A DNA stretch of 64,000 bases from Nitrospirota bacterium. GTDB taxonomy: Bacteria; Nitrospirota; Thermodesulfovibrionia; Thermodesulfovibrionales; UBA6898. Below, piece by piece: positions 1-29,791 of the stretch (position 1 is the first letter of the stretch; each line of letters starts with the position of its first letter). The stretch is from positions 13,955-77,954 of the forward strand of contig JAJRYC010000038.1 in the NCBI GenBank assembly GCA_024275975.1. Direction: 5' to 3'. A model generated the notes under the pieces. The model worked only from the letters and a program-made list of their open reading frames with translations. It was not told the DNA's origin and made no database searches. The position numbers were made by a program, and so were the translations under genes.

Positions 1-166
1 CCTTTTTTAACGACCTCTCGACCAGAAAGGCGGGAATTACAAGTATGAATAAGCTGACGACTATCCCGATGAAAATGGTATTTCTACGCATAAAAAAAGA
101 CCGGTTGCCGTCCATGGCTTCTTCCGGACCGTTTTTCCTGTCTGCCTTATCACCCTTTGTAGTCAC
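1..166 (-). CDS. T2SS GspM/PilO-like single-pass membrane protein, N-terminal part only (continues past window start)
   Basis: A minus-strand frame opens at GTG 166-164, just downstream of the gspL-like stop. It reads VTTKGDKADRKNGPEEAMDGNRSFFMRRNTIFIGIVVSLFILVIPAFLVERSLKK: a short charged head followed by one TM helix. Its position after gspL matches gsp operon order. Confidence 0.3.
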   Translation of the reverse strand, partial: MTTKGDKADRKNGPEEAMDGNRSFFMRRNTIFIGIVVSLFILVIPAFLVERSLKK

Positions 167-177
167 GGCATTCTCCG

Positions 178-1245: not shown

Positions 1246-1300
1246 CTCTCATCTCCTGTCGTCCCGACCGCGTCAGGTCCGGAACACCGGTAAAACTCTG

Positions 1301-2281
1301 TCATATTTCTCTCCAGTATTTGACTGTATTACTGTCACTTTTTATTTCAACAACAGCTTCAATTATCCTTCTTATCCTGTTCTCTTCAGTAACAACCACT
1401 ATGCGGAAGTTGGTGGCTTTTACAGTAATCCAGCCGGAAAGAGGGCTCAAAACCGGCTCATTACCGATGTCGGTTTCTACAAACGGCGCGATCTCTTCCC
1501 TGCGATATACAATCCATTCGGCAACGTCTTCCGTCATTTCATCGTTGAGAGACATTATAACAGGTATTGAAGCAGTATTTATATTAATATTTACGGAATT
1601 TCTTCCAATCATTCCATAGACTGTTACGTACGGCATCAGCTTTCCATAGGTCTCTTTATCTATCCCCTGTATCAGAAGCAGCTCATCAACACTGTCCATA
1701 TACGCGTTCTTGGCTCCGTCTTCCGAGTCTCTCAGTCTCGGCTCATTATCCCTGTCTATCCAGTCAGCTACCCTGGCGGCGATAGATTCGTCCAGATTCA
1801 GGTTCCTCAGCAGCCGCTTGAAGGATTCATAGGAATCATAAGAATCAGATACCCTGAGGACCGAATTAAGGTTGAGCTTTGAGTTTTCGTCCTCCGAGCT
1901 GATAAGCACGCTTCCTTCGAATCCCGTCAGAATATTGTTAACCGGCATCTCTGTTTTGGCCGGATATGTATACGCGGACAAACTTTCTCTTTCCGAGATC
2001 GTTTTTACCGCCAGGGAGACTCCGGATTTGGCGACAAACGACAATCTCTGCAAGGTTTTCCAGTTATACAGACTTTCCGTTGTTGTATGGACGCCATAGG
2101 TGAATTCGACAACAATCGCGGTTATAATCACGAGAACAAGGAGAGTAAGAACCAGCACCATGCCTTTATCGGACTTCAGGACATGAGGCCCAGGGTATGT
2201 ATTTTCAGACTCTTCCCCTTTCCTCCGCAAGGCGGGATTATCCGGCCAAAAGCGGCTACTCCTGTATTTCATTGCTTCCAC
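1301..2281 (-). CDS. gspK: T2SS minor pseudopilin GspK
   Basis: N-terminal hydrophobic helix GMVLVLTLLVLVIITAIVVEF. GspK-typical blocks are present: LNLNSV, DWIDRDNEPR, ELLLIQGIDKETYGKLMPYVTVYG, NINTASIPVIMSL. Confidence 0.75.
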   Translation of the reverse strand: MEAMKYRSSRFWPDNPALRRKGEESENTYPGPHVLKSDKGMVLVLTLLVLVIITAIVVEFTYGVHTTTESLYNWKTLQRLSFVAKSGVSLAVKTISERESLSAYTYPAKTEMPVNNILTGFEGSVLISSEDENSKLNLNSVLRVSDSYDSYESFKRLLRNLNLDESIAARVADWIDRDNEPRLRDSEDGAKNAYMDSVDELLLIQGIDKETYGKLMPYVTVYGMIGRNSVNININTASIPVIMSLNDEMTEDVAEWIVYRREEIAPFVETDIGNEPVLSPLSGWITVKATNFRIVVVTEENRIRRIIEAVVEIKSDSNTVKYWREI

Positions 2282-2904
2282 TCAATTTTCCTTCCAATTC
2301 TTGTCCTGGCGATATCCGAAATCGAAACCTGCTTTTTGTTATCACCCGTTCTTACCGCAACTGTAATCCTTACTTCTTCGGGAAAGCTCTTCGTTAAGGA
2401 ACTGTCCCATGTCCTGACCCATTTTCCGTCATATTTTGCCTCGACCGTAAACGAATCCATATCTTCTATTAACTCCATGCCTGCTGCAACTCCGCTCGGG
2501 GCATAGGCTGAGGAAACCTTCTTTTTGAGCGACAGAGTTCCCCCTTCTTCCCGGACTTCATAGCTGATCCTTGCGAGACCGGGCATTAAAGGGGAATACG
2601 CGGTGAATGTTATTCCGGATGCCTGCCTGCCGTAAAAATCCCTGTCATCAATCTTGAAGATGGTGTACTTCAGGCTGCCGGAAAAATATGACGCCTCTAT
2701 CTCCCTCTTTAATATATCCAGAACTCCACGCGCTTCCTGGAGCTGTAAAAGGGAATTGCCAACAGTGCTTACAGCCTTCTGAGACATAAAAAATGTGCTG
2801 TAAAGCGCCATAAGAATAATAGACGTTATTGCTATGGCGACCAGAACCTCTATTAGTGTAAAGCCGCCCCTGAAGATACTTTTTTTATTGTTATTCATGA
2901 TCAA
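2269..2904 (-). CDS. gspJ: T2SS minor pseudopilin GspJ
   Basis: Prepilin N-terminus MIMNNNKKSIFRGGFTLIEVLVAIAITSIILMALY. Size (211 aa) and operon position fit GspJ. Confidence 0.7.
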   Translation of the reverse strand: MIMNNNKKSIFRGGFTLIEVLVAIAITSIILMALYSTFFMSQKAVSTVGNSLLQLQEARGVLDILKREIEASYFSGSLKYTIFKIDDRDFYGRQASGITFTAYSPLMPGLARISYEVREEGGTLSLKKKVSSAYAPSGVAAGMELIEDMDSFTVEAKYDGKWVRTWDSSLTKSFPEEVRITVAVRTGDNKKQVSISDIARTRIGRKIEWKQ

Positions 2905-2911
2905 TCCATCA

Positions 2912-3220
2912 TTATTCCCTGTTTTCTATGATCAGCTCGGACAGTTCCACCTCATCCTTTCCGCTCCTGACGACCACGCCTATCTCTATCATTCCCGGGA
3001 AAGAGGATTCCAGGACTTTTGTCTCATACTGAAAGCCTGACCAGGGATCCCTGAAATAGCCGCTGCTGTCCACAGGCGATTTCTCCATCTCGTACATCTT
3101 CTCTTTCGCGAGGGTTGTGGCGATAGTAACAACACCATGTCTGTCGGCAATGCCGAGCTGGTAATTCAGTGTATAAATAAGTGTTACAAGAAGCCCTCCA
3201 ATAATGGCAAGGCTTATCAT
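2912..3220 (-). CDS. gspI: T2SS minor pseudopilin GspI-like; leader peptide lies out of frame upstream (ATG at 3267)
   Basis: The ORF begins inside the hydrophobic helix (MISLAIIGGLLVTLIY). In its own frame it is preceded by TAG-GGFTLLEV. A separate frame starting at 3267 encodes MKHAFPGR. See findings. Confidence 0.6.
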   Translation of the reverse strand: MISLAIIGGLLVTLIYTLNYQLGIADRHGVVTIATTLAKEKMYEMEKSPVDSSGYFRDPWSGFQYETKVLESSFPGMIEIGVVVRSGKDEVELSELIIENRE

Positions 3221-3465
3221 AACCTCAAGAAGCGTGAAGCCGCCCTACCCGGAAAGGCATGTTTCATGAGGCCCGGTGCAATTACTGTTACTTTTTAGTC
3301 CTCTTATCTTCATGTCCTGCATGTATTTATATGAAAGATATTAAACCGGCAATAATACAGTTTGTCATGCCGGAAATGGTTTGGCATTCGGAACCTTGGT
3401 AATAATGGAATCCTGTCATCATTACAAGGTTTTTTTTGTTGTTCCGCCCGCGAATTACACAACAT

Positions 3466-3930
3466 TCAAGACAGATCCTCTAAAACCTTTACCCTGCCGC
3501 TCAAAGGGTTAAAGACGACCGTCATGGCGGCCCCCTCATCCTTTAAAAAAAAACTGAACGCCTCCGAAGCGCCAAGAGGTCCGAAAAAGATTATCAGTTC
3601 GCCTTCCGATACCATGCCCTTTGACTGTAATTCAACTGCATAAAGGCTTTCAAATCTCCGGGTCTTTTCTCCTTCGGGGCCATTGGAGACTATCAATTTT
3701 TCCTTGAAGTCCACCCCAAGCGAAAACGTCTCCTTGGTGGATATCGCGCTGTCATTCAGGTATCTCAATACGGATGCCAGCCTCCTGGCGTCGGATTTTA
3801 TCTTCTTCTCCCGGACAACGGAGAAAGACGGGATCACCAGCGCGAGCATCATGGATATAAGAAAGATTACTACTATTATCTCTAGCAGGCTGAAGCCGGC
3901 TGCTTCTGAATTCCGCTTGGTCCGCGTCAA
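3466..3930 (-). CDS. gspH: T2SS minor pseudopilin GspH-like
   Basis: Contains AAGFSLLEIIVVIFLISMMLALVIPSF. The track ORF runs to 4011 but overlaps gspG by 68 nt. A TTG at 3930, just after the gspG stop, gives the short leader (M)TRTKRNSEAAGFSLLEI, which is the more likely start. Confidence 0.6.
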   Translation of the reverse strand: MTRTKRNSEAAGFSLLEIIVVIFLISMMLALVIPSFSVVREKKIKSDARRLASVLRYLNDSAISTKETFSLGVDFKEKLIVSNGPEGEKTRRFESLYAVELQSKGMVSEGELIIFFGPLGASEAFSFFLKDEGAAMTVVFNPLSGRVKVLEDLS

Positions 3931-3943
3931 TCGGCCAGCGATA

Positions 3944-4423
3944 TCACTCCATGTTCCAGTTTGTAATATCCGCATCCTTTCCCTCGCCGCCTTCGCTTCC
4001 GTCAGCCCCAAAGCTTATGATGTCAAAATCTCCCTGCAGTCCGGGGGAGATATATAAGTAGGGATTGCTCCAGGGATCCAGGGGGATTTTCCTGCGTTCC
4101 AGGTAGCCGCCCTCTCTGAACTTTCCCGGTATCTTACCAGTTGTAGGCTCTTCTATTAGGGCATTCAGCCCCTGCTGGGTATCAGGATAGAAGCCGTTGT
4201 CTATCTTGAAGAGTTTGAGCGCCGTCTCAAGGTTTCTTATCTGAATCTTTGCGTCGGCAACACGCGCGTCATCCGTACGACCAATGATCTTCGGCGCCAC
4301 AATCGCGACTAACAGACTGAGGATAAACACAACGACGATAATCTCGATCAGGGTAAACCCTTCCCGCTGGTTACGGCTTTTCGTAGCTTCTATATTCCAC
4401 TGCTTACGTTCTGTATTCTTCAT
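3944..4423 (-). CDS. gspG: T2SS major pseudopilin GspG
   Basis: REGFTLIEIIVVVFILSLLVAIVAPKIIGRTDDARVADAKIQIRNLETALKLFKIDNGFYP is a classic GspG N-terminal and conserved core. Confidence 0.9.
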   Translation of the reverse strand: MKNTERKQWNIEATKSRNQREGFTLIEIIVVVFILSLLVAIVAPKIIGRTDDARVADAKIQIRNLETALKLFKIDNGFYPDTQQGLNALIEEPTTGKIPGKFREGGYLERRKIPLDPWSNPYLYISPGLQGDFDIISFGADGSEGGEGKDADITNWNME

Positions 4424-4450
4424 TATTTAATAACCTCCAACATAACTATT

Positions 4451-5626
4451 TTACTTAATCAACATATTCAACTGGAATATGGGCAGCAGGACCGCCATGA
4501 CAATAAAGGCCACGGCAAGCGCCATGCATAATATCATCGCAACTTCAAAGACAGCAACAGCGTCATTTACTTTTCTGTTGAATTCATTCTCATATGAACT
4601 TGCCGCCCTGTTCAGTGTCTCGGCCAGCCTTCCGCTCCTTTCACCCGTTGCGATCAGCTGGATCAATACAGGAGAGAAGTGTTCGAGAGACGCGGAAAGG
4701 CTATGGCCCTCGGCAACTTTTTCCTCAGCGTTCAGGACCGAGTTTTCCAACACCTTATTCCCCATTGATTTCGCGGAAAGCTTCAGCGCGCTCAGCATCG
4801 GGAGACCGCCGGCGATCAGAAATTCCAGGGTCCTAGCGAACCTGGCGTAGTAGAGACTCTGGATTACATTGCCGGGCGCCCTGAGAATCATCCTGTCGAT
4901 AAAGACTCTCCTCCTCTCCAGAAATCTTTTAACCGGAAGAAACAGCGCCGCGACACTACCTATAAGCGCCCACCAGTAATTGGTGAAGACATTACTTATG
5001 AATATCAGGACGATTGTTACAAAAGGCAGTGTGCTTTCGGTGTCTTCAAATATCTTAACAATTTTAGGTATCACAAAAGTAAAGAGGAATGAGAGCACCA
5101 CAAGGCTGACACCCATCATTATTATGGGATATATCATGGCTGATCTGACCTTTGACTTAACTGCATTCCGGCTCTCCAGAAAATCAGCGAGTCTGAGGAG
5201 CACTTTGTCGAGCGTGCCGCTCTGTTCGCCCGCCTGTATCATGTTAATGTAAAATTCAGGGAAGTAATCACCAAATTCCTCCATCGCCCTGTATAGACCA
5301 GCCCCACCAGAGACCTTTTCCTTTATATCGATCAGCATATCTCTGTAAATCCCTTTGTATTCATTCGAAAGCGACTGAAGCGCCTCGATTAAAGGTACTC
5401 CGGACGCAAAGAGTATCGAAAGCTGCCTCGTCATGCCCGGGAGGAATGTCTCGTCGATCCTCTGGAAGAAATGTTTTTTATGTCTGACACGCGGCGCGGT
5501 TATATCCCGGGGAAAGACGCCTTCGGCCCTGATTTTGGCGACAGCGTCATTGAGCCCAGATGCCTCGATAATGCCCGACACATCCGCGCCTTCCGATGTA
5601 TATCCGTTATATTTGAAAACAGGCAT
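4451..5626 (-). CDS. gspF: T2SS inner-membrane platform protein GspF
   Basis: 391 aa with the duplicated GspF-type cytoplasmic domain plus TM segments. It lies between gspE and gspG. Confidence 0.9.
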   Translation of the reverse strand: MPVFKYNGYTSEGADVSGIIEASGLNDAVAKIRAEGVFPRDITAPRVRHKKHFFQRIDETFLPGMTRQLSILFASGVPLIEALQSLSNEYKGIYRDMLIDIKEKVSGGAGLYRAMEEFGDYFPEFYINMIQAGEQSGTLDKVLLRLADFLESRNAVKSKVRSAMIYPIIMMGVSLVVLSFLFTFVIPKIVKIFEDTESTLPFVTIVLIFISNVFTNYWWALIGSVAALFLPVKRFLERRRVFIDRMILRAPGNVIQSLYYARFARTLEFLIAGGLPMLSALKLSAKSMGNKVLENSVLNAEEKVAEGHSLSASLEHFSPVLIQLIATGERSGRLAETLNRAASSYENEFNRKVNDAVAVFEVAMILCMALAVAFIVMAVLLPIFQLNMLIK

Positions 5627-5719
5627 AATTCACACTGTAGATTAATGGCGATGTAATCTTTCTTTGCCGGAATATGATTCCCGCGGGCCTCGACTGATTT
5701 TTCCGGACTGAAGGCATAT

Positions 5720-7249
5720 TCATACTTCAACTATGTCTTTCTGCGTCACCCTCATAACCTCTTCAAGGGTTGTATCACCCTGTAGCACCTTATTCAGTCC
5801 GTCCAGATAAAGGGTCTTCCTGCCTTTTGAAACAGCATAATCTTTTACAGACTGCGAAGCCGTCCTGCCTGTAATCATCTGTCTCACTTCATTGTCCACG
5901 TATAAGAGTTCAAAAATTCCAGATCTTCCGAGATAACCGGTGCCTTTGCATTTATCGCATCCGGCCCCCCTGTGCAGTGTGAGCTGCGCGGACTGAATTT
6001 CAAAACCGGAAAAATATTCAGCCTCTTCCTCCGTCGGCACGTATTCCTCCCTGCAGTAAGGACATATATTTCTCACCAGCCTCTGCGCCAGGACGGCAAC
6101 GAGCGACGAAGCAACCAGGAACGGTTCCACTCCCATGTCGATAAGCCTTGTAATAGCGGATGCCGCGTCGTTTGTATGGAGTGTGGACAGGACAAGATGG
6201 CCTGTAAGGGATGCCTGAATTGCTATCTCGGCAGTCTCAAAGTCCCTTATTTCGCCGACCATTATTACGTCTGGGTCCTGTCTTAATATCGACCTGAGCC
6301 CCGAGGCGAAAGTGAGCCCTATCTTCGGATTTACATGTATCTGGCCGATACCCTTAAGCTGATACTCCACTGGGTCTTCAACGGTTATTATATTCTTCTC
6401 TTCCGTATGAATCCGGTTTAACGAGGCATACAGCGTCGTGGTCTTTCCGCTTCCGGTCGGACCCGTGACAAGTATGATGCCGTTGGTCCTGCGTAAGAAA
6501 TTCTCGAAGTCCCTCCCGTCATCACCGGTAAGTCCGAGTTCATTCAGGCTGATAAGCCCCTGTCTCCTGTCGAGCAGTCTAAGCACCGCCCTCTCCCCGA
6601 AGGAAGTCGGAACTATCGAGACCCTTATATCTATATCTTTTCCGCCGATGAGTATCCTTATGCGTCCATCCTGTGGAAGCCTCTTTTCGGCAATATCGAG
6701 GCTGGCCATAATCTTTATCCTGCTTATCAGGGCGTCCTGGATAATCTTGGGCGGGGTCAATATCCTGTGGAGCATTCCGTCCATCCTCATTCTCACGTCA
6801 AGTTCTTTTTCGTACGGTTCAATATGAATATCGCTGGCCTTCTCCTTGACAGCCTGCTGTAGAAGGGCATTGAGCAGACGTATGATAGGCGCTTCTTCCG
6901 TAAGCTCCATAAGGTCTCTGGGCTTTTCGAACTCTGTGGCGACCGCCGAAAAATCTTCGCCTGATATGCCCTCCATAACCTCTTCGGCAGAGCCTGTCTG
7001 ACCGTAAACCCTGTTAATCGCGTCAATAATAATTCCGGGCCGGGCCTTTAGAGGATATGGGTTGAGGGCATATCTCCGGGCTATTTCACGAAGCGCAAGG
7101 TATCCTCTATCATCCGCAACCGCAGCCACAAGCGAGCCGCCGGATCTTTTTATCGGCATAATCATATTATTTTTCGCGAAAGAAAGTGGGATTTCCTTGA
7201 TAAGGGAAATCTCGATCTCATCGTCATTTAGGGCATCAATCGTTTTCAT
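5720..7249 (-). CDS. gspE: T2SS ATPase GspE
   Basis: Walker A GPTGSGKTT, Asp/His boxes, and a C-terminal tetracysteine (CPYC...CDKC). 509 aa. Confidence 0.95.
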   Translation of the reverse strand: MKTIDALNDDEIEISLIKEIPLSFAKNNMIMPIKRSGGSLVAAVADDRGYLALREIARRYALNPYPLKARPGIIIDAINRVYGQTGSAEEVMEGISGEDFSAVATEFEKPRDLMELTEEAPIIRLLNALLQQAVKEKASDIHIEPYEKELDVRMRMDGMLHRILTPPKIIQDALISRIKIMASLDIAEKRLPQDGRIRILIGGKDIDIRVSIVPTSFGERAVLRLLDRRQGLISLNELGLTGDDGRDFENFLRRTNGIILVTGPTGSGKTTTLYASLNRIHTEEKNIITVEDPVEYQLKGIGQIHVNPKIGLTFASGLRSILRQDPDVIMVGEIRDFETAEIAIQASLTGHLVLSTLHTNDAASAITRLIDMGVEPFLVASSLVAVLAQRLVRNICPYCREEYVPTEEEAEYFSGFEIQSAQLTLHRGAGCDKCKGTGYLGRSGIFELLYVDNEVRQMITGRTASQSVKDYAVSKGRKTLYLDGLNKVLQGDTTLEEVMRVTQKDIVEV

Positions 7250-7306
7250 GCTATCCTATCAATATTTGTTGAAACAGGCATGCAATATACCGATGTCATG
7301 TCTCCA

Positions 7307-9013
7307 TCATCTCTTTTTTGACCGCATCGCCTTCATTTTATAGTTAGGCTCTGCGTATTCCACTTCAGGTATGAGCGAAAATTCCCGGATAGCGTCTTCC
7401 ACAGTCCGCCCTTCCCCAAGCTTTACAAGATAAACCCTGACATGTTTCATGACCTTAATTACAGACCCGCCTTCCTGGGCGATTATCTCCTCTGCCGCGT
7501 CATTTGTGACGCCTTCCATGAATTTGACCAGAATCTCTCCCTCTACATACTGATTCTCCACTTTAGCGAACTCCTTCTGTTTGCTCTTTGTAATCGAACC
7601 GAGACCCTCCGCGTCCTTGATGACATGTGGGGTGATAAAGATCAAAAGGTTCGTCTTTTTCTTCGAGACGCTTTTGGTCTTAAACAGCCATCCCAGAACA
7701 GGGATATCACCGAGAATAGGCACCTTGGCAAGGTTTTCCTCGTCCCTCTCTTCCATCAGGCCGCCGATTACTACTGTCTGGTTGTCCTTCACAACAACTG
7801 ATGTTCGAGTCGAGCGCTTTGTGGTCGATGGACCGACACTTATAAGGATATCATCGCTGGCGTCCTGCTTTACCGACGATATCTCCTGGTATATATCGAG
7901 CTTTACATAATCTCCCTTCGTAATCTGGGGCGTTATCCTGAGTGTTATTCCGACATCCTTTCTCTCTATCGAGCTTAGGACGGTATTCGCGGTCGTGATG
8001 TCCCGCTCTCTCTTTGAGATGAAGGGCACATTTTCACCGACGATAATCTCCGCCTCCTGGTTGTCCGATGTTAGCAGTTGAGGCGTCGAAAGAACGTTTA
8101 CCGCGCCCCGAAACTCATTCATGCTAAAGAGAGCGGCGAACCCAGGGACGGAAAGAGTTGATTCCACAAGAGACCCATTTGCGTCTATTGTCGTCATGGG
8201 GATATCGAAGTAATTACCCATGCCTCCTCCCGTAAGACCGGTCAACCCGTAGATCAGTGACTGCAGAGCAGACCCATCCATCGTCCCGAATCCTCCTATT
8301 CCGATCGGCTCTCCATTATGAGTCCCCATCACCCTCCATTTTGTCCCGAGTTCCCTTAATTTATCAATTGACGCCTCCACAATCATCGCCTCGACAAATA
8401 CCTGCCTTCTCCTCTTGTCAAGTTGTTTTATGACGCGCACCAGATTTTGATAATCCGAGGGTGACGCAACGATCACCAGGGAATTCGTCGCCTCATCGGC
8501 AGTAATATTTATACCACCGGCTGACTCGAACGGGGTCATCGCCACCCCCCCCTTTTTTGTCTTTTTCCGGGGCGACGCGCCTTTTATTATTCGTGACAGC
8601 ACTTCCGCCAGTTCAGTGGCGTCGGCATTTTCAAGTGTATAGACATTTATCATCCCCTGCGCATCCGGAGAAGGCACGTCAATCGCCGCAATGAGGGATT
8701 TCATCGATTCTCTCCTGCCTTTATCACCAAAGAGTATAACAGCGTTCAGTCTCTGGTCGGCCACTGCCTTTGTCTTTTTCATCCTGGACTGCTTCCCGGG
8801 CGCACCCCTTGCCCTGCTCTGTCCGATGCCTTCATTAATCATCTTCGCGACTGCGTCAGCGCTCGAAAACCTGAGGAAAACAATATCCGGCTCCTCCCTC
8901 AATGAAGGCTGGTCTATTGCATCAATAATCGAGAGTACTTTTTCAATATTAAGCCCTGAATCTATTACAAGAAGCATATTGCCCGGCCCAAAGTCAGAGA
9001 CATAGCCGTTCAT
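7307..9013 (-). CDS. gspD: Secretin GspD, N1-to-C-terminal portion (same gene and frame as 9050-9511), with an extra C-terminal domain
   Basis: Secretin-core blocks VLSTPQLLTSDNQEAEIIVGENVPF, VVIGGLMEE, VPILGDIPVLGWLFK, NLLIFITPHVI. The start at 9013 is in frame with the upstream ORF across two TAG codons. Confidence 0.9.
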   Translation of the reverse strand: MNGYVSDFGPGNMLLVIDSGLNIEKVLSIIDAIDQPSLREEPDIVFLRFSSADAVAKMINEGIGQSRARGAPGKQSRMKKTKAVADQRLNAVILFGDKGRRESMKSLIAAIDVPSPDAQGMINVYTLENADATELAEVLSRIIKGASPRKKTKKGGVAMTPFESAGGINITADEATNSLVIVASPSDYQNLVRVIKQLDKRRRQVFVEAMIVEASIDKLRELGTKWRVMGTHNGEPIGIGGFGTMDGSALQSLIYGLTGLTGGGMGNYFDIPMTTIDANGSLVESTLSVPGFAALFSMNEFRGAVNVLSTPQLLTSDNQEAEIIVGENVPFISKRERDITTANTVLSSIERKDVGITLRITPQITKGDYVKLDIYQEISSVKQDASDDILISVGPSTTKRSTRTSVVVKDNQTVVIGGLMEERDEENLAKVPILGDIPVLGWLFKTKSVSKKKTNLLIFITPHVIKDAEGLGSITKSKQKEFAKVENQYVEGEILVKFMEGVTNDAAEEIIAQEGGSVIKVMKHVRVYLVKLGEGRTVEDAIREFSLIPEVEYAEPNYKMKAMRSKKR

Positions 9014-9049
9014 CTATACAATCGGTTTTATCAGCCTGAGGGCATCGTC

Positions 9050-9511
9050 CTAGGATATATTCTTCAGAGTCATAAGCCTGGCGATATAACTTTCGTTTAC
9101 AGGCTGTCCATCATAAGAAATTTTAATGCCCTTCTGCTTTGCCTCGGCAACAGGAATAATCTTGTAAGCATCCACACCCGATGGCACAACAGTAAAACCT
9201 TTAAGCTCAAGGATGGACGTAAAAAGGTTATACGCGTCATCAACGTTCAGTTTGGAGGGGGCTATTATTGTTATATTTCCCTTCACCCTGTTATCGAAAA
9301 TAAAGTTCTTGCCGGTAATCTCACTTATAAATTTAGTTACTGTAGACAGTTCGACATCCACGAAATTAAAGGTGACCTCTTCGTCTTTTACGGTCTCCGC
9401 AAAGGCTGGTGTGGCGGCAAGGGAGGAAAGAAGAAGGATATATGATAAAACAAGAAACAATAATACAGCAGAAAGATGGAGACTACAGGATAAAACAATA
9501 TTTTTTTTCAC
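9050..9511 (-). CDS. gspD: Secretin GspD, signal peptide + N0 domain portion (ends at an in-frame TAG)
   Basis: Signal peptide followed by the N0 block VTFNFVDVELSTVTKFISEITGKNFIFDNRVKGNITIIAP...AYNLFTSILELKGFTVV. The stop at 9052-9050 is TAG, and the frame continues into 7307-9013. Confidence 0.85.
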   Translation of the reverse strand: MKKNIVLSCSLHLSAVLLFLVLSYILLLSSLAATPAFAETVKDEEVTFNFVDVELSTVTKFISEITGKNFIFDNRVKGNITIIAPSKLNVDDAYNLFTSILELKGFTVVPSGVDAYKIIPVAEAKQKGIKISYDGQPVNESYIARLMTLKNIS

Positions 9512-9586
9512 TTTGTATTGCCCTCGCTTTTCAATAATTTATATACAAGCTGCCGCCGGTTGGTCCAGGGACCGGCATAGGATATT

Positions 9587-10462
9587 TTATTTTATCTGGT
9601 ACGTCATTGTCATCTTCGCGCCATTTCTGATAATGTTCATCCTGACCCGCTCCATACCCCTCAGGGCGGTGAAAGCCTGGAGCGCGTATTCGGGGTTGGA
9701 GATATCAAACTCATTAATCTTCAAAAGAACATCACCGTTCCTGAGGCCGAGACTGTCGTATATCCCCCCTTTTTTGACTTCACGCATAGTATATCCCTGC
9801 TGCCTGCCGTCAACAATATTCGGCAGAAGGCGGGCATCGGTCATCAGGTCCCTCGGATTTTCTATGGCCTGCTGGATCCTTCTCTGATCTATGGAGTAAG
9901 TGGTGGCGTTAATCTTTCTTGTAAATCCAGAGTAGGAACCACGGGACTTGTTTCTCCGGGTCTCCCTTGCAGAGACTATCTCTCTCAGAGGGAGCTCCGT
10001 TATGTTTTCACCTTTTTCTATAACAACCCTGTCTTTTTCGACTTTCCTGAGGATGCCGAGGTTAAAGACGGAATCACCAACCCTGAAAATCTCCTGCTTG
10101 CCCATCTTGGCCATAAAGATAGCATAACTGTCTCTTTCCCGCCCCGCAACAGTGCCGATAAGTATTATGTCACTATCAGACAGCGCGGGCGGTTGATTCG
10201 ATAAAGACCTTAGGTTACCCCCGGGGAATCCAAAGGGATTGTTCTCCAGTATTGATGCGTAAATCTGGAGATTATGATTCGGAAGACTTTCACTCTTTAT
10301 GTCATTAATAACGGCCTTTTTTTCAGGACTGAAAGAAAACGAGACGACATCTCTGATTAAAAAGAGTGTTGCGATGATAAGCAATGCTCCTATTAACGGG
10401 TTAATCAGGGCTACAAGCTTCCGGTTGTTAACAAGAAGATTGTTTAAATTCTGTATTTTCAT
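9587..10462 (-). CDS. gspC: T2SS protein GspC (N-terminal TM, C-terminal PDZ)
   Basis: TM helix LVALINPLIGALLIIATLFLI. PDZ-like C-terminus GIYDSLGLRNGDVLLKINEFDISNPEYALQAF. First gene of the operon. Confidence 0.7.
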   Translation of the reverse strand: MKIQNLNNLLVNNRKLVALINPLIGALLIIATLFLIRDVVSFSFSPEKKAVINDIKSESLPNHNLQIYASILENNPFGFPGGNLRSLSNQPPALSDSDIILIGTVAGRERDSYAIFMAKMGKQEIFRVGDSVFNLGILRKVEKDRVVIEKGENITELPLREIVSARETRRNKSRGSYSGFTRKINATTYSIDQRRIQQAIENPRDLMTDARLLPNIVDGRQQGYTMREVKKGGIYDSLGLRNGDVLLKINEFDISNPEYALQAFTALRGMERVRMNIIRNGAKMTMTYQIK

Positions 10463-10734: not shown

Positions 10735-11067
10735 ATGAAGAAATATTTTTCAACAGTCTGCCTGATTCTGCTGTTGGGAGGCTGCGTAACAACAAATGGT
10801 CTGAATATTATATCCCCGACATTACCGGAAGATGAAATCGAGGAACATGTAGAGAGAATACTTAGACAGCAATCTCAAGCCGTGCCTCAAGCCGTGCAGG
10901 AAGAGAAGCCGGCAGAGGTCGTAAGAACACCATCCGCCGGGATTTCAGTCCCGGAAAACCCCCAGCCGCATAATTGCGAAACCAGGGATGCCTTGATCAA
11001 TCTACTGATAAAAAAGGGGATTATAACCAGAAAAGAATTGCTTGATGAAGTGCGGAACCTGAAATAA
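10735..11067 (+). CDS. Small lipoprotein, unknown function
   Basis: An internal ATG at 10735 is preceded by AAAGGAG. It gives MKKYFSTVCLILLLGGC, a lipobox with Cys. The track ORF starts at 10606. Confidence 0.45.
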   Translation: MKKYFSTVCLILLLGGCVTTNGLNIISPTLPEDEIEEHVERILRQQSQAVPQAVQEEKPAEVVRTPSAGISVPENPQPHNCETRDALINLLIKKGIITRKELLDEVRNLK

Positions 11068-11430
11068 TTGGAGAAAAATAATTTCAGATCGGGAGAAAGT
11101 TCGAAATAACTGCTTTTCATCTATTTTACGGCGGGGTATTTTCTCTTGACATATTAGCCGAAAGTATATGATCATATCGAAATTTCTTAGTTGATAGTTT
11201 CAGGGTATCTAATAATAAATAAGGTATATCACCGGAGGATTTCCGGGAAACCTCCAAACATGGAATTCCTGGGATGAGATGAAGTATAACGTTGCGATTA
11301 ATAGGTATAAAACTATGTGGAACCGGCAGGGTGACTATATATATAAGGAGGTGACAGGAGGCAGGACATCTGATGATTATTTCTTTTTTGTTAACATATT
11401 ATCAATTAAAGGATGGGAGGATGAGAAAGG

Positions 11431-13119
11431 ATGAATTTTTTGAAGAGCAATAGAAGAAGCCGCATAACATTAATTTTACTATCGTTGTTATTGGTGGTGA
11501 TACCATTATATCTGTATAGCTGCGGCGGTAGTGTCGGCGGCGGATATGACACGTGCGTGGATCCGAAAATCAACGTCCTGGTCGACGCTGACACGCTGAA
11601 TGGCTGGATAACAAACGGATATGGCAGCGATGACAGCAACTGCAACAGGATAGTCGTACTGCATGTCGGCGATGATGCAAGCTATAGCGCAGGGCATGTC
11701 CCCGGAGCCTATCAGCTTACTGATTCTGATTATGCAGCTACCAGGTCTGACGGAGTTAGTGAAACTAATGGAATGGTCGCCACAAAGGCCCAGATGGATG
11801 ATCTCATCCAGAGGACAGGCATAGACGCAAGAACCGTTGTTGTTCTTACCGGACGGTATGCCAGTAGTGCTATGAATATTTACAAACTGACAAGGTCATA
11901 TTTTAACTTCCGTTACTGGGGATTCCCGAGGAACAGGATAAGAGTGCTTGACGGTTTTGTTGACACAACTTGGGCTAATGCAGGTTATGCCGTAGATACC
12001 ACTCCTACCCCGGCCTCGGAGGCCTCCGACTACAGTGTCTGCAGCCTGACACCGGACCCCGACAGATTCAGGGCGCCATTGGAAGAGATGAGGAATATTG
12101 CCATGGATGACGATGTCGCGACTGTTGTTATTGATACGAGGCGCGATGATGAATACAACGCTACTATTAATACTACAGGTGGACCTACATTTTCTGGCTT
12201 TGTTGCATTTGAAGGACATGCAAGGACCGCAGTCCACCAGGAATGGATAAACCTGTTAGATACAGAAATGAGACTCCTTCCGAAGAATGACCTGACATCA
12301 ATATTCACCGGCATAAATGTAGACGAGACCACAACCGCATATCCCTACTGCCGCACAAGTTTCAGGGCGGCTGTCACATTCCTGGCGCTTGACGGCGTCC
12401 TCAACTACCCGGTAAAAATCTATGACGGAGGATGGCTTGAGTGGGGCCAGATGACTTCCACGGCATTGCTGGGCGGTCTAGCAGATACCTCTCCATGGAG
12501 GACTGATTTCATTCCTCTGGGAGACGGAGAGATAATCGACAATAATTCAGACGGAGTGCTGGCCAATGGCTATGAAGATACTTTCGAGGGTGCTTCGTCT
12601 AATACTGGCGGTGCAGACTGTACTGATCTTTATGGTACTGATTTCAGATATGATGGCACTGCGGATGGTGGTTTGGCAACATGGACGCCACAGACATTAT
12701 CAGCCGGTACTTATAATGTGTCCGTATGGCATGTAGCTAAATCCAGTTACTCCACAAACGCGGCATATACCGTAAATCACAATGGTGCTGCCGATAATGT
12801 AACCGTGGATTTAACAGCAAACGGCTGTCAATGGTACAGCATCGGTACATATGACTTTGTGGCTGATGGTGTAACAGTAGAAAATATTACATTGAGTGAT
12901 TCCGGCGCCAGCACCGGTTTTGTAGTTGCCGATGCCGTCAAATTCACTCCCGTAATGCAGTTGACCGAGTCAATCACACATAATACCAATGTTGAGCCAC
13001 TCACCGGTGCTAATTCTTTTGCCTTTCACGCTGACGGCGTGAATACTGAAGATGCCGCGATATGCACATCTGGCGACACAGGTGGCGGCGGCGGTGGTGG
13101 TGCAGCACCAGGATATTAA
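11431..13119 (+). CDS. Exported lipoprotein with rhodanese-like (sulfurtransferase) domains and a C-terminal beta-rich domain
   Basis: Lipobox LYLYSCGG. Rhodanese-type blocks include VVLHVGDDASYSAGHVPGA and a loop Cys, YPYCRTSFRAAVTFLAL. The C-terminal segment (GTYNVSVWHVAKSSYSTNAAYTVNHNG...VADAVKF) resembles golvesin-C-like / amidase-associated domains from memory. Gly-rich tail. Confidence 0.6.
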   Translation: MNFLKSNRRSRITLILLSLLLVVIPLYLYSCGGSVGGGYDTCVDPKINVLVDADTLNGWITNGYGSDDSNCNRIVVLHVGDDASYSAGHVPGAYQLTDSDYAATRSDGVSETNGMVATKAQMDDLIQRTGIDARTVVVLTGRYASSAMNIYKLTRSYFNFRYWGFPRNRIRVLDGFVDTTWANAGYAVDTTPTPASEASDYSVCSLTPDPDRFRAPLEEMRNIAMDDDVATVVIDTRRDDEYNATINTTGGPTFSGFVAFEGHARTAVHQEWINLLDTEMRLLPKNDLTSIFTGINVDETTTAYPYCRTSFRAAVTFLALDGVLNYPVKIYDGGWLEWGQMTSTALLGGLADTSPWRTDFIPLGDGEIIDNNSDGVLANGYEDTFEGASSNTGGADCTDLYGTDFRYDGTADGGLATWTPQTLSAGTYNVSVWHVAKSSYSTNAAYTVNHNGAADNVTVDLTANGCQWYSIGTYDFVADGVTVENITLSDSGASTGFVVADAVKFTPVMQLTESITHNTNVEPLTGANSFAFHADGVNTEDAAICTSGDTGGGGGGGAAPGY

Positions 13120-13131
13120 AAGAATTTAACG

Positions 13132-13434
13132 GTGAGACACGGACTGTTCATCATATTTTTATCTGTCCCATTGATGCTGCTCCTCACCGCAACGGGACCT
13201 CAGGCGAAAGAGATTATAGCCATGGGTCCGGACAGCGGCGACAAGCGGATACAATGGGATGCTAACAAGGATTATGAACAATCCGGTGAAGATTCCGATG
13301 ATAATAGCACGGGGGAGACCCGGCCTTCAAAAGAAGACTGCGGCAGCGGGACTCGGGACGAGTCTCCCCAGGGCTGTTCAGGCGTTCCGGAAAATACAAA
13401 ACCTGAATATGATCTGTCGGATTGCTGCTGTTAG
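13132..13434 (+). CDS. Small secreted acidic protein ending in -DCCC
   Basis: GTG start and a signal-peptide-like N-terminus (RHGLFIIFLSVPLMLLLTATGPQA). Acidic, low-complexity body with C-terminal CCC. No clear SD. Ends at TAG. Confidence 0.35.
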   Translation: MRHGLFIIFLSVPLMLLLTATGPQAKEIIAMGPDSGDKRIQWDANKDYEQSGEDSDDNSTGETRPSKEDCGSGTRDESPQGCSGVPENTKPEYDLSDCCC

Positions 13435-13501
13435 ATTCACAAATGATTTACAGGGAAATATATTATAAATTGAGAAAACTGTTAAGGATGAGGAGGTATT
13501 C

Positions 13502-14152
13502 ATGAGATTCGGAATGAAAAAATGGGGCCTGACGGCTTTAATATTTGCGATGACGTTCGGATTTGGCATACAATCAGTCCAAGCCGGTCCTATGATAAAG
13601 ATAAGTGACCAGTCATGGCTCCTGATTAACTATAGTAGTCAACTTTACGGTGTATGGCGTGACACAGGTTCAGGACCTGACGCCACTGACGACTCCAGCG
13701 ACATCTTCTTCAGGAGAAACAGGCTGACCTTTTTCGGAAAGGCGACAAAGACGCTGAAGTTCAACCTTCAGATCGAACACAAAGGCACCAGGATGATCCA
13801 AAACCTCGGAGTTGATTCTTCACCGGGAGGAGGCCTTGATATCCTTGATGCCTTTTTAATGGCGAAGTATTCCAATGCCTTCAGGCTGAGGCTCGGACTT
13901 ACAAAAGACCCTCTGACCAGGGAAAATAACGAAGGATGTTTCGATCCGCTGACTCTCGACCGGTCGCTGTTCATATACACGCCGTTTCAGGTGTCCCGTG
14001 ACACAGGCTTGGTGGTATGGGGAAATCTGCTCAAAAACAGATTACAGTACAGGGCGAGTATAATGGAAGGCAGGGAGAGCGCCGACACACCCAAGAGCAG
14101 TCTCCGTTATACGGGAAGGGTCCATGTTACGCTGCTTAACCCTGAGTCTTAG
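13502..14152 (+). CDS. Outer-membrane beta-barrel porin (porin O/P-like), N-terminal part ending at an in-frame TAG
   Basis: GAGGAGG RBS, signal peptide MRFGMKKWGLTALIFAMTFGFGIQSVQA, and alternating beta-strand pattern. The frame continues into 14189-14692. Confidence 0.6.
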   Translation: MRFGMKKWGLTALIFAMTFGFGIQSVQAGPMIKISDQSWLLINYSSQLYGVWRDTGSGPDATDDSSDIFFRRNRLTFFGKATKTLKFNLQIEHKGTRMIQNLGVDSSPGGGLDILDAFLMAKYSNAFRLRLGLTKDPLTRENNEGCFDPLTLDRSLFIYTPFQVSRDTGLVVWGNLLKNRLQYRASIMEGRESADTPKSSLRYTGRVHVTLLNPES

Positions 14153-14188
14153 ATCATCTACAGGGGAACTTATCTCGGAAAGAAAAAA

Positions 14189-14692
14189 GTGCTTACACTG
14201 GGCGGTGGCTATCAGTTTGAGCCTGACGTAGCCTATGCGAGCCTTTCAACTCAAGATTTACCCGTGGACAACACAACATGGACAGTTGACGCGTTCTTCG
14301 AGTACCCCACCCCGGCCGGAACATTCACTGTCTCGGGCGCTTATCTTGATGTTGATTTCGATGACGCTTATAAAGGTCCTGATCCTGACCCGGCTGTTTT
14401 TAATGTCCTTGGTGAGAGGAACGGATGGTACGCAAAGGCAGGTTATCTCTTTCCTTCAAAGATCGGTATAGGAAAACTTCAGCTATTCGGTCGTTATGAA
14501 TACTGGAAATTCGCCGAACTTAATGGGATCGGCGACCAGACGATTAAATGGACTGGCCTCGGCATTAACTATCTCATCAACAACCAGAAGTTAAGACTGA
14601 CGGTTGAATACGCCAAGACCGATTATGAAACAGAAGACGCCACGAACAAGGATTTTGATACAGTGACAACGATGGTGCAGTTTATGTTCTAG
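14189..14692 (+). CDS. Outer-membrane beta-barrel porin, C-terminal part (same frame as 13502-14152)
   Basis: The frame is open from 14153. Beta-strand pattern, with a C-terminal beta-signal ending in Phe (TTMVQFMF). It has no signal peptide of its own. Confidence 0.6.
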   Translation: MLTLGGGYQFEPDVAYASLSTQDLPVDNTTWTVDAFFEYPTPAGTFTVSGAYLDVDFDDAYKGPDPDPAVFNVLGERNGWYAKAGYLFPSKIGIGKLQLFGRYEYWKFAELNGIGDQTIKWTGLGINYLINNQKLRLTVEYAKTDYETEDATNKDFDTVTTMVQFMF

Positions 14693-15663: not shown

Positions 15664-16560
15664 TTAGTTCAGAGTTGCCCGCTCTCTCTTTATGGCATCC
15701 GCGACCCTCGCGACTTTCGCCATCTCTTTAACGTCATGGACACGGACGATGTCCGCGCCTTTTATTATCGAAATCGCCACTGCTGCCGCCGTGCCTTCGA
15801 TCATCTCGCCCGCAGGGGCGCCATCGAGTATGTTTCCGATGAAGGCCTTTCTTGAAGGACCTATGAGCACCGGCTTTTCGAGCATGGTGAATTCATTGAG
15901 GTTATTTATTATCTGAAGGTTATGATCAAACGTCTTTCCGAACCATATTCCGGGATCGATTATAATCATATCATCGGGGATACCGAATTTTTTCGCCAGC
16001 CGGATGCCGGCCCTGAAATAATCCATTATCTCCGGGATGAGGGCCTCGTATTCAGGATTATCCTGCATATTCCTTGGCACACCTTTCATATGCATCATCA
16101 CGACAGGGACCTTATATTCCGAGACGACCATCGGCATTCCGGGGTCGAATCTCATTCCGCTTATGTCATTGACTATCGAGGCACCCGCCTCAATCGCCTG
16201 TTTTGCGACCTCGGCCTTACAGGTATCTATAGAAACCGGTATATCAACTTTCCCTGAAAGCGCTTCGATTACCGGCACTACGCGATCCAGCTCTTCGTCA
16301 ACAGAGACCGGCTCGGAACCTGGCCTTGAGGACTCGCCTCCGATATCAATTATGTCAGCGCCGTCATCAACCATCCTGAGGGCACGATCTACCGCCATTG
16401 ATTTATCGAAATACAGCCCATTCTCAGAAAAGGAATCCGGCGTTACGTTCAGGATTCCCATTATACAGGTCTTTTCAGAAAAGTCTAATGAATAGTTTTT
16501 CCAGGCAAGTCTCAAGTAGCGGGCCTCAAGCCTCGGCGACCCCCTGTAGATCAGCCTCAT
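15664..16560 (-). CDS. folP: Dihydropteroate synthase
   Basis: Pterin-binding blocks [36 protein letters not shown]. Located downstream of ftsH, as is common. Confidence 0.9.
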
Positions 16561-19279: not shown

Positions 19280-19452
19280 AAATATTATACCTCCATCTCC
19301 ATCTCTATTTTTTTTATAAAATCTATCTTCCTGCCCAAAAAATTCTCGCCGACACTAACAAATCTTTCAGTGGAATCCGTCACGTAAAATTTATGGACAG
19401 CATCATCCGGGCCTGTCCTCCTCAGGGACAGTTCATTCAGAACATTTTTTAC

Positions 19453-20124
19453 CTATCCGGCGGTTTCGACCGCAGAGTCGATGAGGGTGACTGTTTCACT
19501 CATGACCTTTGTTATAACATTCTTCAGGAGAGGATAATGAGTGCATCCGAGCACCAGGGTGTCCACGCACTTGTCCCTGATATTATTCAGGTATGTTTCG
19601 GCTATCATTTCGGCTATTCTGCCTTCAGACCATCCTTCTTCAACAAGGGGGACAAAGAGCGGACAGGCCAGGCTGAATACCTCGACATCACCGTCAACCT
19701 CTTTTATCGCCCTGGTATATGAAGAGCTTTTTATGGTGGCTTCAGTGCCTATCACACCGATTTTTTTATTCTTCGAGCATGAAACAGCAGCCCTCGCGCC
19801 GGGCTTTATGACACCCAACACCGGTACGGGCACGGAACGCCTGATAGCGTCCAGACTTACTGACGATGCTGTGTTGCATGCTATAACGAGCAATTTAATA
19901 TCTTCTGAAATTAGGAACCTGGCGTTCTCGAAAGAGTACCGGGTTACTGTTTCCGGAGACCTTATGCCGTAAGGGACCCTTGCCGTATCCCCGAGATAGA
20001 CGGTATTTTCAAAAGGCAGTTCCCTGAATATCTCCTTTAATACAGTCAGACCTCCAATGCCTGAATCGAATATGCCTATCGGCTTTTCTTTTTTATTCAT
20101 CGGAAAGTCTGCTGCTGTCCTCAT
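19453..20124 (-). CDS. murI: Glutamate racemase MurI (ORF stops at in-frame TAG; conserved C-terminus continues in frame to 19285)
   Basis: [13 protein letters not shown], with catalytic-Cys blocks ACNTAS and GCTHYPLL. After TAG 19455-19453, 55 more in-frame codons encode a MurI-like C-terminus. Confidence 0.9.
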
Positions 20125-21692: not shown

Positions 21693-22013
21693 ATGGGTAA
21701 TCGGGAATCCAAAACATTATTCAGGATAAAACAATCGCTGGAATACTGGTTGGCAATGGAAAGTACTATTAAATCAGCCGGATACGTAAAAAATCTTCGC
21801 CGGCCGTGACCGTATATTCCTGATCGCACCGACAGTTCCAGGCACCTCAAAATAAAATCCTGCTAAAATGATAAACCATTCGGAATAAAAAGGTATAATT
21901 ACAGAGGAAATATTTATCCAGTGACCCTCCGGATGGATGAGTGGGCGGGCCTTATCACACTGCCAGATCCGATAATAAATTTTATATTTTCGAAAGGAGT
22001 TAATAAACAGGGA

Positions 22014-29489: not shown

Positions 29490-29739
29490 GATTCATTAAT
29501 GAAAGAAAGGCATAGCGCAGAGAGCATAGCGTAACGGATAAAAGATGTTCAATGTTCAACGTTCAATGTTTAAGGCGCAAACAAAAGCAAAGCGTACCAG
29601 ACTAAGGACGAAAAAAAAGCTCAGACAGTCTTGAATTCTTAACGCGTTCAGCCTCGGAATCATCCCTAAAATAATCAAAGGGGAATGAAAAACAATACCT
29701 GCTGATGACAAGAGTAACCCCTTAAGTAAGGGTAAATTA

Positions 29740-29772
29740 CTCCCCTCTTAGGCAGAGGGGTTGGGGGGATTT
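29740..29772 (+). repeat. REP-like palindromic element, variant copy
   Basis: TCCCCTCTTAGGCAGAGGGGTTGGGGGGATTT contains the hairpin CCCCTCT/AGAGGGG. It matches the copies at 53406 and 63634. Confidence 0.7.
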
Positions 29773-29791
29773 GTTCAATCAAGCGACTTCT

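What the first reader, a model, noticed from the sequence alone, without database searches (positions are those of the whole stretch)
9014..9052. Two in-frame TAG codons 12 codons apart split the gspD secretin
The minus strand reads ...ARLMTLKNIS-TAG-DDALRLIKPIV-TAG-MNGYVSDFGPGNMLLVIDSGLNIEKVL.... The TAG codons lie at 9052-9050 and 9016-9014. The upstream ORF (signal peptide + N0) and the downstream ORF (N1 through secretin core) are in the same frame. The 11 codons between the two TAGs look like the expected N0-N1 linker (compare the l..a.a..la..l.pl pattern in GspD proteins). Two independent nonsense hits to the same codon within 39 nt, with no other damage in a 2.2-kb gene, is unlikely under random decay.
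Basis: seen in the sequence. Interest (0 to 1): 0.7.

Follow-up and report, generated by a model that had tools for sequence, protein, structure and literature searches.

The report
Private amber codons from G-to-T noise
The two TAG codons that split the secretin gene are real in this sequence, but they are two of five stop codons found only in this one assembly, and they belong to a layer of unselected G-to-T type changes, so they are most likely sequence damage or error and not a programmed recoding signal.

Summary
gspD (7307-9511, minus strand) has in-frame TAGs at codons 154 and 166 and no other damage.

It is not specific to gspD. Three more genes in the window carry one in-frame TAG each: gspI, an ExtI-like porin and murI.

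Every other assembly of this species has a sense codon at all five sites, at about 99.7% identity outside the recombined tracts. The same holds for relatives at 93-95%. The ancestral codons are TCG, TCG, TCG, GAG and AAG. The sister GspD, MurI and GspI proteins match the window's at every other residue.

The window carries 26 private G:C>T:A changes in 36.5 kb, against 5 in the reverse direction. Their split into synonymous, missense and nonsense is close to neutral, and 18 of 22 hit a G followed by a purine. Transitions show no such excess and are mostly synonymous. About 4.5 nonsense changes are expected from this noise in 64 kb. Five are seen.

No tRNA, Rfam family, Pyl gene or stimulatory RNA fold was found. 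TAG also ends six ordinary genes.

Most likely this is oxidative-damage-type substitution noise fixed in one assembly. One oddity remains: all five stops are TAG (p about 0.003) and three replace Ser. A real hypermutator clone with amber suppression is therefore not excluded.

The parts
7307..9511 (-). gspD, type II secretion secretin. It has 734 codons including two in-frame TAGs, and is otherwise identical to the sister strain's intact protein P0361.
9050..9052 (-). In-frame TAG at gspD codon 154. The ancestral codon is TCG (Ser), so the change is G>T on the + strand at 9051.
9014..9016 (-). In-frame TAG at gspD codon 166. The ancestral codon is TCG (Ser), so the change is G>T on the + strand at 9015.
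2912..3322 (-). gspI minor pseudopilin, 136 codons. It is cut in the prepilin leader two residues before the G-F-T-L-L-E motif.
3245..3247 (-). In-frame TAG at gspI codon 26. Four sister contigs have AAG (Lys), and a 95% relative has AGG.
13502..14692 (+). ExtI-like / Porin_O_P outer-membrane porin, 396 codons. Its true stop is also a TAG, directly after the C-terminal ...QFMF.
14150..14152 (+). In-frame TAG at porin codon 217. The 94% relative L007 has TCG (Ser).
19285..20124 (-). murI glutamate racemase, 279 codons. It is identical to sister P0121 except at the TAG.
19453..19455 (-). In-frame TAG at murI codon 224. L002, L003 and L004 have GAG (Glu), so the change is C>A on the + strand at 19455.

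Best explanation
The TAGs are not a recoding device. They are five private single-base substitutions of this one assembly: TCG>TAG three times, GAG>TAG once and AAG>TAG once. Four of them belong to a window-wide layer of about 0.7 G:C>T:A transversions per kb that selection has not filtered. This layer sits on top of ordinary, selection-filtered strain divergence. The signature points to oxidised guanine (8-oxoG): only G:C>T:A is in excess, the mutated G is followed by a purine, and the split into synonymous, missense and nonsense changes is near neutral. The step I infer, and have not shown, is that the lesions were fixed outside the cell. That would mean damaged template DNA copied by amplification, or a low-input or low-coverage library, so that the errors reached the consensus. 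On this reading the organism makes full-length GspD, GspI, porin and MurI.
For: 1. All five sites are sense codons in every other assembly. These include sister contigs from GCA_006240915.1, GCA_006240755.1, Logan SRR14803400 and SRR6439365, and JGI 3300001391, plus relatives at 93-95% identity.
2. Outgroups polarise the changes to the window lineage.
3. Sister GspD, MurI and GspI are identical to the window's proteins except at the TAGs.
4. In low-divergence segments (36.5 kb) there are 26 G:C>T:A changes against 5 T:A>G:C. Three independent sister assemblies agree with each other against the window. Other strains also lack the window's G>T missense changes.
5. The G:C>T:A class splits about 7 synonymous, 13 missense and 3-4 nonsense. 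The neutral expectation is 21/70/9%.
6. Transitions in the same DNA are 14 synonymous to 7 non-synonymous, and are symmetric in direction (11 versus 14). The excess is therefore lesion-specific and not general unpurged mutation.
7. The 5' neighbour of the mutated C is T or C in 18 of 22 cases and never A. This means the G is followed by A or G, the preferred oxidation sites according to established chemistry (my own knowledge).
8. About 4.5 nonsense changes are expected in 64 kb at this density. Five are seen.
9. murI, which is normally essential, is among the genes hit. A truncation at residue 224 of 279 would remove part of the fold (my own knowledge of MurI structures).
10. There are no indels or frameshifts relative to the sisters apart from one 12-nt repeat indel.
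11. The window holds no tRNA, no Rfam family, no Pyl or release-factor gene, and no unusual RNA fold at the site (z = +0.67).
Against: All five nonsense changes are TAG. Under the neutral model the TAG share is about 0.31, giving p of about 0.003. No TAA or TGA interrupts any gene in the roughly 45 kb that could be compared. Three of the five replace TCG, although GAG is three times as common. Three of the five lie in the T2SS operon, which is 17.5% of the coding DNA (p about 0.04). Oxidation artefacts from standard shotgun library preparation normally stay at low allele fraction and do not reach a consensus, so the model needs amplification or very low input, which I could not verify. The source assembly (an 81,389-bp NCBI contig) and its reads could not be retrieved.
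Confidence: 0.6

Rival explanations
1. The amber mutations are real and tolerated. The window comes from a clonal hypermutator lineage of the MutY/MutM-deficient type, which gives G:C>T:A changes. That lineage also reads through UAG, for example with a supD-like tRNA-Ser(CUA). Such a tRNA is itself one G>T step away from tRNA-Ser(CGA). TCG>TAG changes would then be effectively synonymous, TAG nonsense would survive, and TAA or TGA nonsense would be purged.
For: All five in-frame stops are TAG, with no TAA or TGA (p about 0.003 under neutrality). Three of the five are at Ser codons. The essential gene murI is hit yet is otherwise perfectly conserved. All five TAGs are followed by a purine. The G:C>T:A-only excess is what a MutY/MutM defect gives.
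Against: No suppressor tRNA, or any tRNA, is present in the window. The missense changes of the same class look unselected. At neutral rates only about 1.5 TAG nonsense changes would be expected, not 5. TAG is still the genuine terminator of six genes, including the porin itself, with no compensating change. No other assembly of the species has any in-frame TAG. The TAG-only pattern could be a look-elsewhere effect of how the window was picked.
Confidence: 0.15
2. The mutations are real and the genes are truly broken. A hypermutator or decaying clone has lost its type II secretion system (gspD twice, gspI) and one porin, perhaps under phage or cheater selection. It survives a truncated MurI through another source of D-glutamate.
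For: Three of the five hits are in one dispensable operon (p about 0.04). A second hit in an already dead gene is neutral. Outer-membrane proteins are common targets of loss-of-function selection (my own knowledge).
Against: murI is hit. The nonsense frequency equals the neutral expectation and is not depleted. This model gives no reason for TAG only. The broken genes show no follow-up decay: there are no indels, and every other residue is identical to the sister proteins. Extrapolating the density genome-wide implies a few hundred nonsense mutations, which is hard to reconcile with viability (inference).
Confidence: 0.17
3. This is programmed or lineage-level recoding of UAG, through pyrrolysine, a reassigned code or programmed readthrough, used in gspD and other genes.
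For: The in-frame stops are exclusively TAG, in otherwise intact genes.
Against: The TAGs are absent from strains 99.7% identical and from all relatives. They replace three different amino acids: Ser, Glu and Lys. TAG ends six normal genes, including a porin with a canonical C-terminal Phe. There are no pyl genes, no tRNA, no Rfam hit and no structure.
Confidence: 0.03

Closest known systems
8-oxoguanine (oxidative damage) G>T / C>A sequencing artefact, as described for library preparation by Costello et al. 2013 (cited from my own knowledge, not read here)
   Same: The excess is confined to G:C>T:A. It is private to one data set and blind to coding consequences. There is a sequence-context bias at the damaged G.
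   Different: The classic artefact stays at low allele fraction and has a CCG>CAG preference. Here the changes are in the consensus, and the context is G followed by A or G in general. Fixation by amplification or low input has to be assumed.
MutY/MutM-deficient hypermutators (G:C>T:A mutators) in E. coli and natural isolates
   Same: The substitution class is the same, and hitch-hiking mutations in such lineages have dN/dS near 1.
   Different: mutY and mutM are not in the window, so their state is unknown. MutS is intact but has two private missense changes. A living clone should be depleted of nonsense in essential genes, yet murI is hit.
E. coli supD (serU) amber suppressor, tRNA-Ser CGA>CUA
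   Same: It would make TCG>TAG silent and would arise by the same G>T step. Three of the five TAGs replace Ser.
   Different: No tRNA is available to test this. Two TAGs replace Glu and Lys. No natural uncultured lineage with such a suppressor is known to me.
Pyrrolysine UAG decoding (pylTSBCD)
   Same: In-frame UAG occurs in otherwise intact genes while UAG is still used as a stop.
   Different: Pyl sites are conserved in orthologues and concentrated in methylamine methyltransferases. Here the sites are strain-private, lie in unrelated housekeeping and envelope genes, and no pyl genes are seen.
GspD/XcpQ type II secretins (PDB 5wln, 4e9j, 3ezj)
   Same: It shares the N0, N1-N3 and secretin core, and the operon order gspC-D-E-F-G-H-I-J-K-L.
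   Different: It has an extra C-terminal Fervidolysin_NPro-like domain, shared by all close Nitrospirota homologues. In this assembly it is interrupted by two TAGs inside N1.

Membership tests
Type II secretion secretin GspD | N0 domain, repeated Secretin_N domains and a C-terminal Secretin domain | tested here: met
   Pfam matches PF21305 (residues 48-118), PF03958 three times, and PF00263 (residues 468-632). It aligns to XcpQ and GspD structures.
Type II secretion secretin GspD | Encoded in a gsp operon with gspC, E, F, G and the pseudopilins | tested here: met
   NCBIfam matches GspC, GspE, GspF, GspG, GspH, GspK and GspL on the same strand at 178-10462.
Type II secretion secretin GspD | Uninterrupted reading frame | tested here: not met
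   This assembly has two in-frame TAGs. The frame is intact in all other assemblies.
Programmed UAG recoding (pyrrolysine or programmed readthrough) | UAG conserved at the same position in orthologues | tested here: not met
   Strains 99.7% identical and relatives at 93-95% have TCG, TCG, TCG, GAG and AAG.
Programmed UAG recoding (pyrrolysine or programmed readthrough) | Decoding machinery (tRNA-CUA, pylS/B/C/D) present | tested here: inconclusive
   The 64-kb window has none.
Programmed UAG recoding (pyrrolysine or programmed readthrough) | Stimulatory RNA structure next to the stop | tested here: not met
   The 171-nt fold around the sites has z = +0.67 against shuffles. There is no Rfam match.
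Reassigned genetic code (UAG as a sense codon genome-wide) | In-frame UAG aligns to one amino acid, and UAG is not used as a terminator | tested here: not met
   The TAGs align to Ser three times, Glu once and Lys once. Six genes end in TAG, including the porin right after its C-terminal Phe.
Amber-suppressor strain (supD-like) | In-frame stops restricted to UAG | tested here: met
   In the comparable 45 kb there are 5 TAG, 0 TAA and 0 TGA. Under neutrality p is about 0.003.
Amber-suppressor strain (supD-like) | A tRNA gene with a CUA anticodon | not testable with these tools
   There is no tRNA in the window, and the source genome could not be retrieved.
Oxidative-damage (8-oxoG) substitution artefact | An excess of G:C>T:A only, private to one data set | tested here: met
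   There are 26 G:C>T:A against 5 T:A>G:C. Transitions are symmetric at 11 versus 14. Three sister assemblies agree against the window.
Oxidative-damage (8-oxoG) substitution artefact | Changes are blind to coding consequence | tested here: met
   The split is 7 synonymous, 13 missense and 3-4 nonsense, against a neutral 21/70/9%.
Oxidative-damage (8-oxoG) substitution artefact | Read-level signature: orientation bias, dependence on duplicates or amplification, sub-clonal allele fraction | not testable with these tools
   No reads are available, and the source accession is unknown.
Decaying pseudogene | Further lesions (indels, raised dN/dS) in the same gene | tested here: not met
   gspD has 4 nucleotide differences from the sister strain, two synonymous and the two TAGs, and no indels.

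The most novel reading that the evidence does not exclude
An uncultured deep-sea Nitrospirota clone is a natural G:C>T:A hypermutator that also suppresses UAG, for example through a tRNA-Ser(CUA) created by the same G>T step. Amber codons would then accumulate in intact genes, including the essential murI, while TAA and TGA nonsense is purged. This would be a natural snapshot of the first step of stop-codon capture.
Probability: 0.13. Interest if true: 0.7.

Novelty: not a real feature. Interest (0 to 1): 0.3.

Why it matters
If this is an artefact, the value is practical. This deposited assembly carries about 0.7 unselected G>T-type errors per kb. That is enough to break roughly one gene in ten, to create false pseudogenes (gspD, gspI, murI and a porin here), and to mimic stop-codon recoding. 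Scans for alternative genetic codes or pseudogenes should check the substitution spectrum against sister assemblies first. If the minority reading is right, it would be a rare natural case of amber suppression arising in a hypermutator. That bears on how stop codons get reassigned.

Tried and rejected
- **Genome-wide TAG reassignment.** I scanned all frames for in-frame TAG. I rejected this because TAG ends six normal genes and the TAGs replace three different amino acids.
- **One inserted amino acid.** After gspD both sites looked like Ser. murI (Glu) and gspI (Lys) broke the pattern.
- **Systematic base-calling error at a methylation or sequence motif.** The 7-mer contexts of 22 sites share no motif beyond a 5' pyrimidine. 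There are no indel errors.
- **General unpurged recent mutations.** I rejected this because transitions show no directional excess and are mostly synonymous.
- **Hidden TAA or TGA interruptions.** A tblastn of all relatives' ORFs against the window found none in real gene frames. The TAA at 4427-4429 lies just upstream of the gspG start. A candidate at the oxidoreductase beta/gamma junction (TAA at 28496) is the natural stop and is the same in the sister.
- **gspI frameshift.** I first read it as a frameshift in a G-run. The ungapped alignment to relatives shows a substitution.
- **Recoding RNA elements.** There is no Rfam hit and no stable fold.
- **Finding the source assembly or an independent copy of the TAG alleles.** Exact-protein look-ups, the genome-contig scan and the metagenome-contig scan returned only sister contigs.
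- **Literature search by accession.** This found nothing. Two hydrothermal-chimney papers (PMC7329443, PMC3903282) could not be linked to the source.

Full report
**1. The observation**

The minus strand of 8900-9400 reads ...ARLMTLKNIS-TAG-DDALRLIKPIV-TAG-MNGYVSDFGPGN.... The TAG codons are at 9052-9050 and 9016-9014. The two ORFs, 9050-9511 and 7307-9013, are in one frame. With the stops bridged, the 734-codon product has these domains:
- a GspD N0 domain;
- three Secretin_N stretches;
- the Secretin core;
- a C-terminal Fervidolysin_NPro-like domain.

It sits in a gspC-D-E-F-G-H-I-J-K-L operon. One detail is not. Aligned to P. aeruginosa XcpQ structures, the two sites lie in the first strand and helix of N1, not in an N0-N1 linker.

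**2. It is not a gspD peculiarity**

I treated only TAA and TGA as stops and listed long frames containing TAG. This turned up two more genes:
- An ExtI-like / Porin_O_P porin (13502-14692) has a TAG at 14150-14152. Its true stop is also a TAG, right after a canonical ...QFMF C-terminus.
- murI (19285-20124) has a TAG at 19455-19453, codon 224 of 279.

Manual inspection of the pseudopilin genes found a fifth. gspI (2912-3322) has a TAG at 3247-3245, two residues before its G-F-T-L-L-E prepilin motif.

I then ran a tblastn of every ORF from all fetched relatives against the window. In the roughly 45 kb that can be compared, the only stops inside real gene frames where relatives have sense codons are these five TAGs. 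There is no TAA and no TGA. The TAA at 4427-4429 is upstream of the gspG start.

**3. What relatives have at these sites**

Homology searches place the window in Nitrospirota / Thermodesulfovibrionales-like MAGs. Sample names such as SWIR1 and DY22_TVG17 suggest deep-sea hydrothermal material. That is an inference from names only.

Several independent assemblies hold a sister strain about 99.7% identical outside recombined tracts. They are:
- GCA_006240915.1;
- GCA_006240755.1;
- Logan SRR14803400 and SRR6439365;
- JGI 3300001391.

At the five sites they read as follows:

| Gene | Window | Other assemblies |
|---|---|---|
| gspD codon 154 | TAG | TCG |
| gspD codon 166 | TAG | TCG |
| murI codon 224 | TAG | GAG |
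| gspI codon 26 | TAG | AAG |
| porin codon 217 | TAG | TCG (94% relative L007) |

Relatives at 93-95% identity (ERZ23498652, GCA_035873255.1) agree with the sense codons, so all five changes are derived in the window's lineage. The sister GspD, MurI and GspI are identical to the window's proteins at every residue other than the TAG positions. In gspD there are only four nucleotide differences from the sister in 2205 nt: two synonymous transitions and the two TAG-creating G>T changes.

**4. The wider substitution pattern**

I aligned the window to the sister contigs and kept only the low-divergence segments, 36.5 kb in all.
- The window has 26 G:C>T:A changes against 5 T:A>G:C.
- In the 40.0-53.4 kb stretch, which contains no TAG and is therefore unbiased, the count is 10 against 1. 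Those 10 split into 2 synonymous and 8 missense.
- The 25 transitions in that stretch are 14 synonymous, 7 non-synonymous and 4 intergenic. They are symmetric in direction, 11 GC>AT against 14 AT>GC.
- Three sister assemblies are identical to each other and differ from the window at all of these positions.
- Other strains in the protein collection also lack the window's G>T missense alleles.
- Over all segments the G:C>T:A class is about 7 synonymous, 13 missense and 3-4 nonsense. This is close to the neutral expectation of 21/70/9% computed from the window's own codon usage.
- The mutated C has a 5' T or C in 18 of 22 cases and never an A. Equivalently, the mutated G is followed by A or G. 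From established chemistry (my own knowledge), these are the guanines most easily oxidised.
- High-divergence (recombined) tracts show no such bias: 31 G:C>T:A against 56 T:A>G:C.

The window therefore carries ordinary, selection-filtered strain divergence plus a separate, lesion-specific, unselected G:C>T:A layer of about 0.7 per kb.

At that density, about 3.8 G:C>T:A nonsense changes are expected in the 56.6 kb of coding DNA. Another 0.5-0.9 are expected from the rarer A:T>T:A class. Five are seen. The number of broken genes is what unselected noise predicts.

**5. Tests for a recoding mechanism**

- The window has no tRNA gene.
- It has no Rfam family at gathering threshold.
- None of the 50 proteins scanned matches Pyl biosynthesis, PylS or a release factor.
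- The RNA around the gspD sites folds no better than shuffles, z = +0.67.
- TAG terminates six ordinary genes, and these stops are shared with the sister strain.
- The TAGs replace three different amino acids.

Lineage-level recoding is effectively excluded.

**6. Most likely explanation**

The five TAGs are private, unselected point substitutions. Four of them belong to an oxidised-guanine type G:C>T:A layer. What is shown:
- the changes are private;
- they are derived in the window's lineage;
- the spectrum is specific to G:C>T:A;
- the mutated G has a purine context;
- the coding consequences are near neutral;
- the number of nonsense changes matches expectation.

What is inferred is where the lesions were fixed. 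I think in vitro is most likely: damaged template copied by whole-genome or PCR amplification, or very low input. Two points support this. A living population should not carry nonsense at the neutral frequency. And murI, normally essential, is hit while being otherwise perfectly conserved. I put this at about 0.6.

**7. What does not fit, and the rivals**

All five stops are TAG. The neutral TAG share is 0.31 for both substitution classes, giving p of about 0.003. If many windows were screened, a look-elsewhere effect weakens it further. Three of the five replace TCG, although GAG is about three times as common. Three of the five lie in the T2SS operon, which is 17.5% of the coding DNA (p about 0.04). 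Library-preparation oxidation artefacts also do not normally reach a consensus.

These points keep two in-vivo readings alive:
- **Hypermutator clone that also suppresses UAG (about 0.15).** The clone would be MutY/MutM-like. A supD-like tRNA-Ser(CUA) is one G>T step from tRNA-Ser(CGA) and would make TCG>TAG silent.
- **Hypermutator clone with truly inactivated T2SS, porin and murI (about 0.17).**

Neither can be tested without the rest of the genome or the reads. I could not retrieve those.

**8. Comparison with known systems and verdict**

As a gene, this is a standard GspD secretin with a lineage-typical extra C-terminal domain. As a phenomenon, the closest known things are the 8-oxoG G>T artefact and MutY-type mutator spectra, not pyrrolysine or code reassignment.

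It is met.

I score the finding low (0.3) as biology. I note two things: the practical warning about this assembly, and the residual TAG-only pattern. That pattern gives the amber-suppression reading a probability of roughly 0.13 and would make it interesting if true.

Noticed in passing
window 7307-7600 (GspD residues 643-723): The secretin carries a C-terminal Fervidolysin_NPro-like (subtilase propeptide / I9-like) domain after the secretin core. All 120 best homologues, from Nitrospirota and relatives, have the same architecture. This is unusual for T2SS secretins.
   Followed up: partly
window 11431-14692: An ExtH-like rhodanese (NF040901) is followed by a small ORF and an ExtI-like porin. 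The arrangement resembles the selenite/tellurite reduction operon and lies next to the T2SS operon.
   Followed up: no
window 28496-29047: The gamma subunit of a 2-oxoacid:ferredoxin oxidoreductase has 26 extra in-frame codons (LEKRIIIAGSGGQG...) directly after the beta subunit's TAA. These codons contain no ATG, GTG or TTG. A CTG at 28499 follows a GGAG. The sister strain is called the same way, so this looks like a non-canonical start or coupled re-initiation and not damage.
   Followed up: partly
window 1-2750, 4000-5500, 11000-13500, 29500-37500, 54000-55000: These tracts are 3-10% divergent from the sister strain, while the rest of the window is about 99.7% identical. In some of them the window matches the 93-95% relatives instead. 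The pattern suggests a recombination mosaic.
   Followed up: partly
window 37817-40450 (mutS): MutS is full length but carries two window-private G:C>T:A missense changes, S113R and F670L. folP (15664-16560) has two private missense changes, H195P and G206W.
   Followed up: no
window 22679-22690: A 12-nt insertion relative to the sister strain lies in a CAAACC-type repeat near the 3' end of the gene at 21921-22721. It is the only indel in 11.4 kb.
   Followed up: no
L016 1-2302 (VAPF01064503.1) versus window 3375-4011: A sister contig joins a 748-aa sulfatase gene directly to gspI, where the window and L018 have gspH. This is either a rearrangement or a chimeric contig in that metagenome assembly.
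   Followed up: no
L015 1416-2397 and JGI proteins P0362/P0363: The JGI 3300001391 (SWIR1) assembly splits gspK and gspD through local indel or frameshift errors, not stop codons. It shows a different error type from the window's.
   Followed up: partly
window 1-64000: There is no tRNA gene and no Rfam family at gathering threshold anywhere in the 64 kb.
   Followed up: yes
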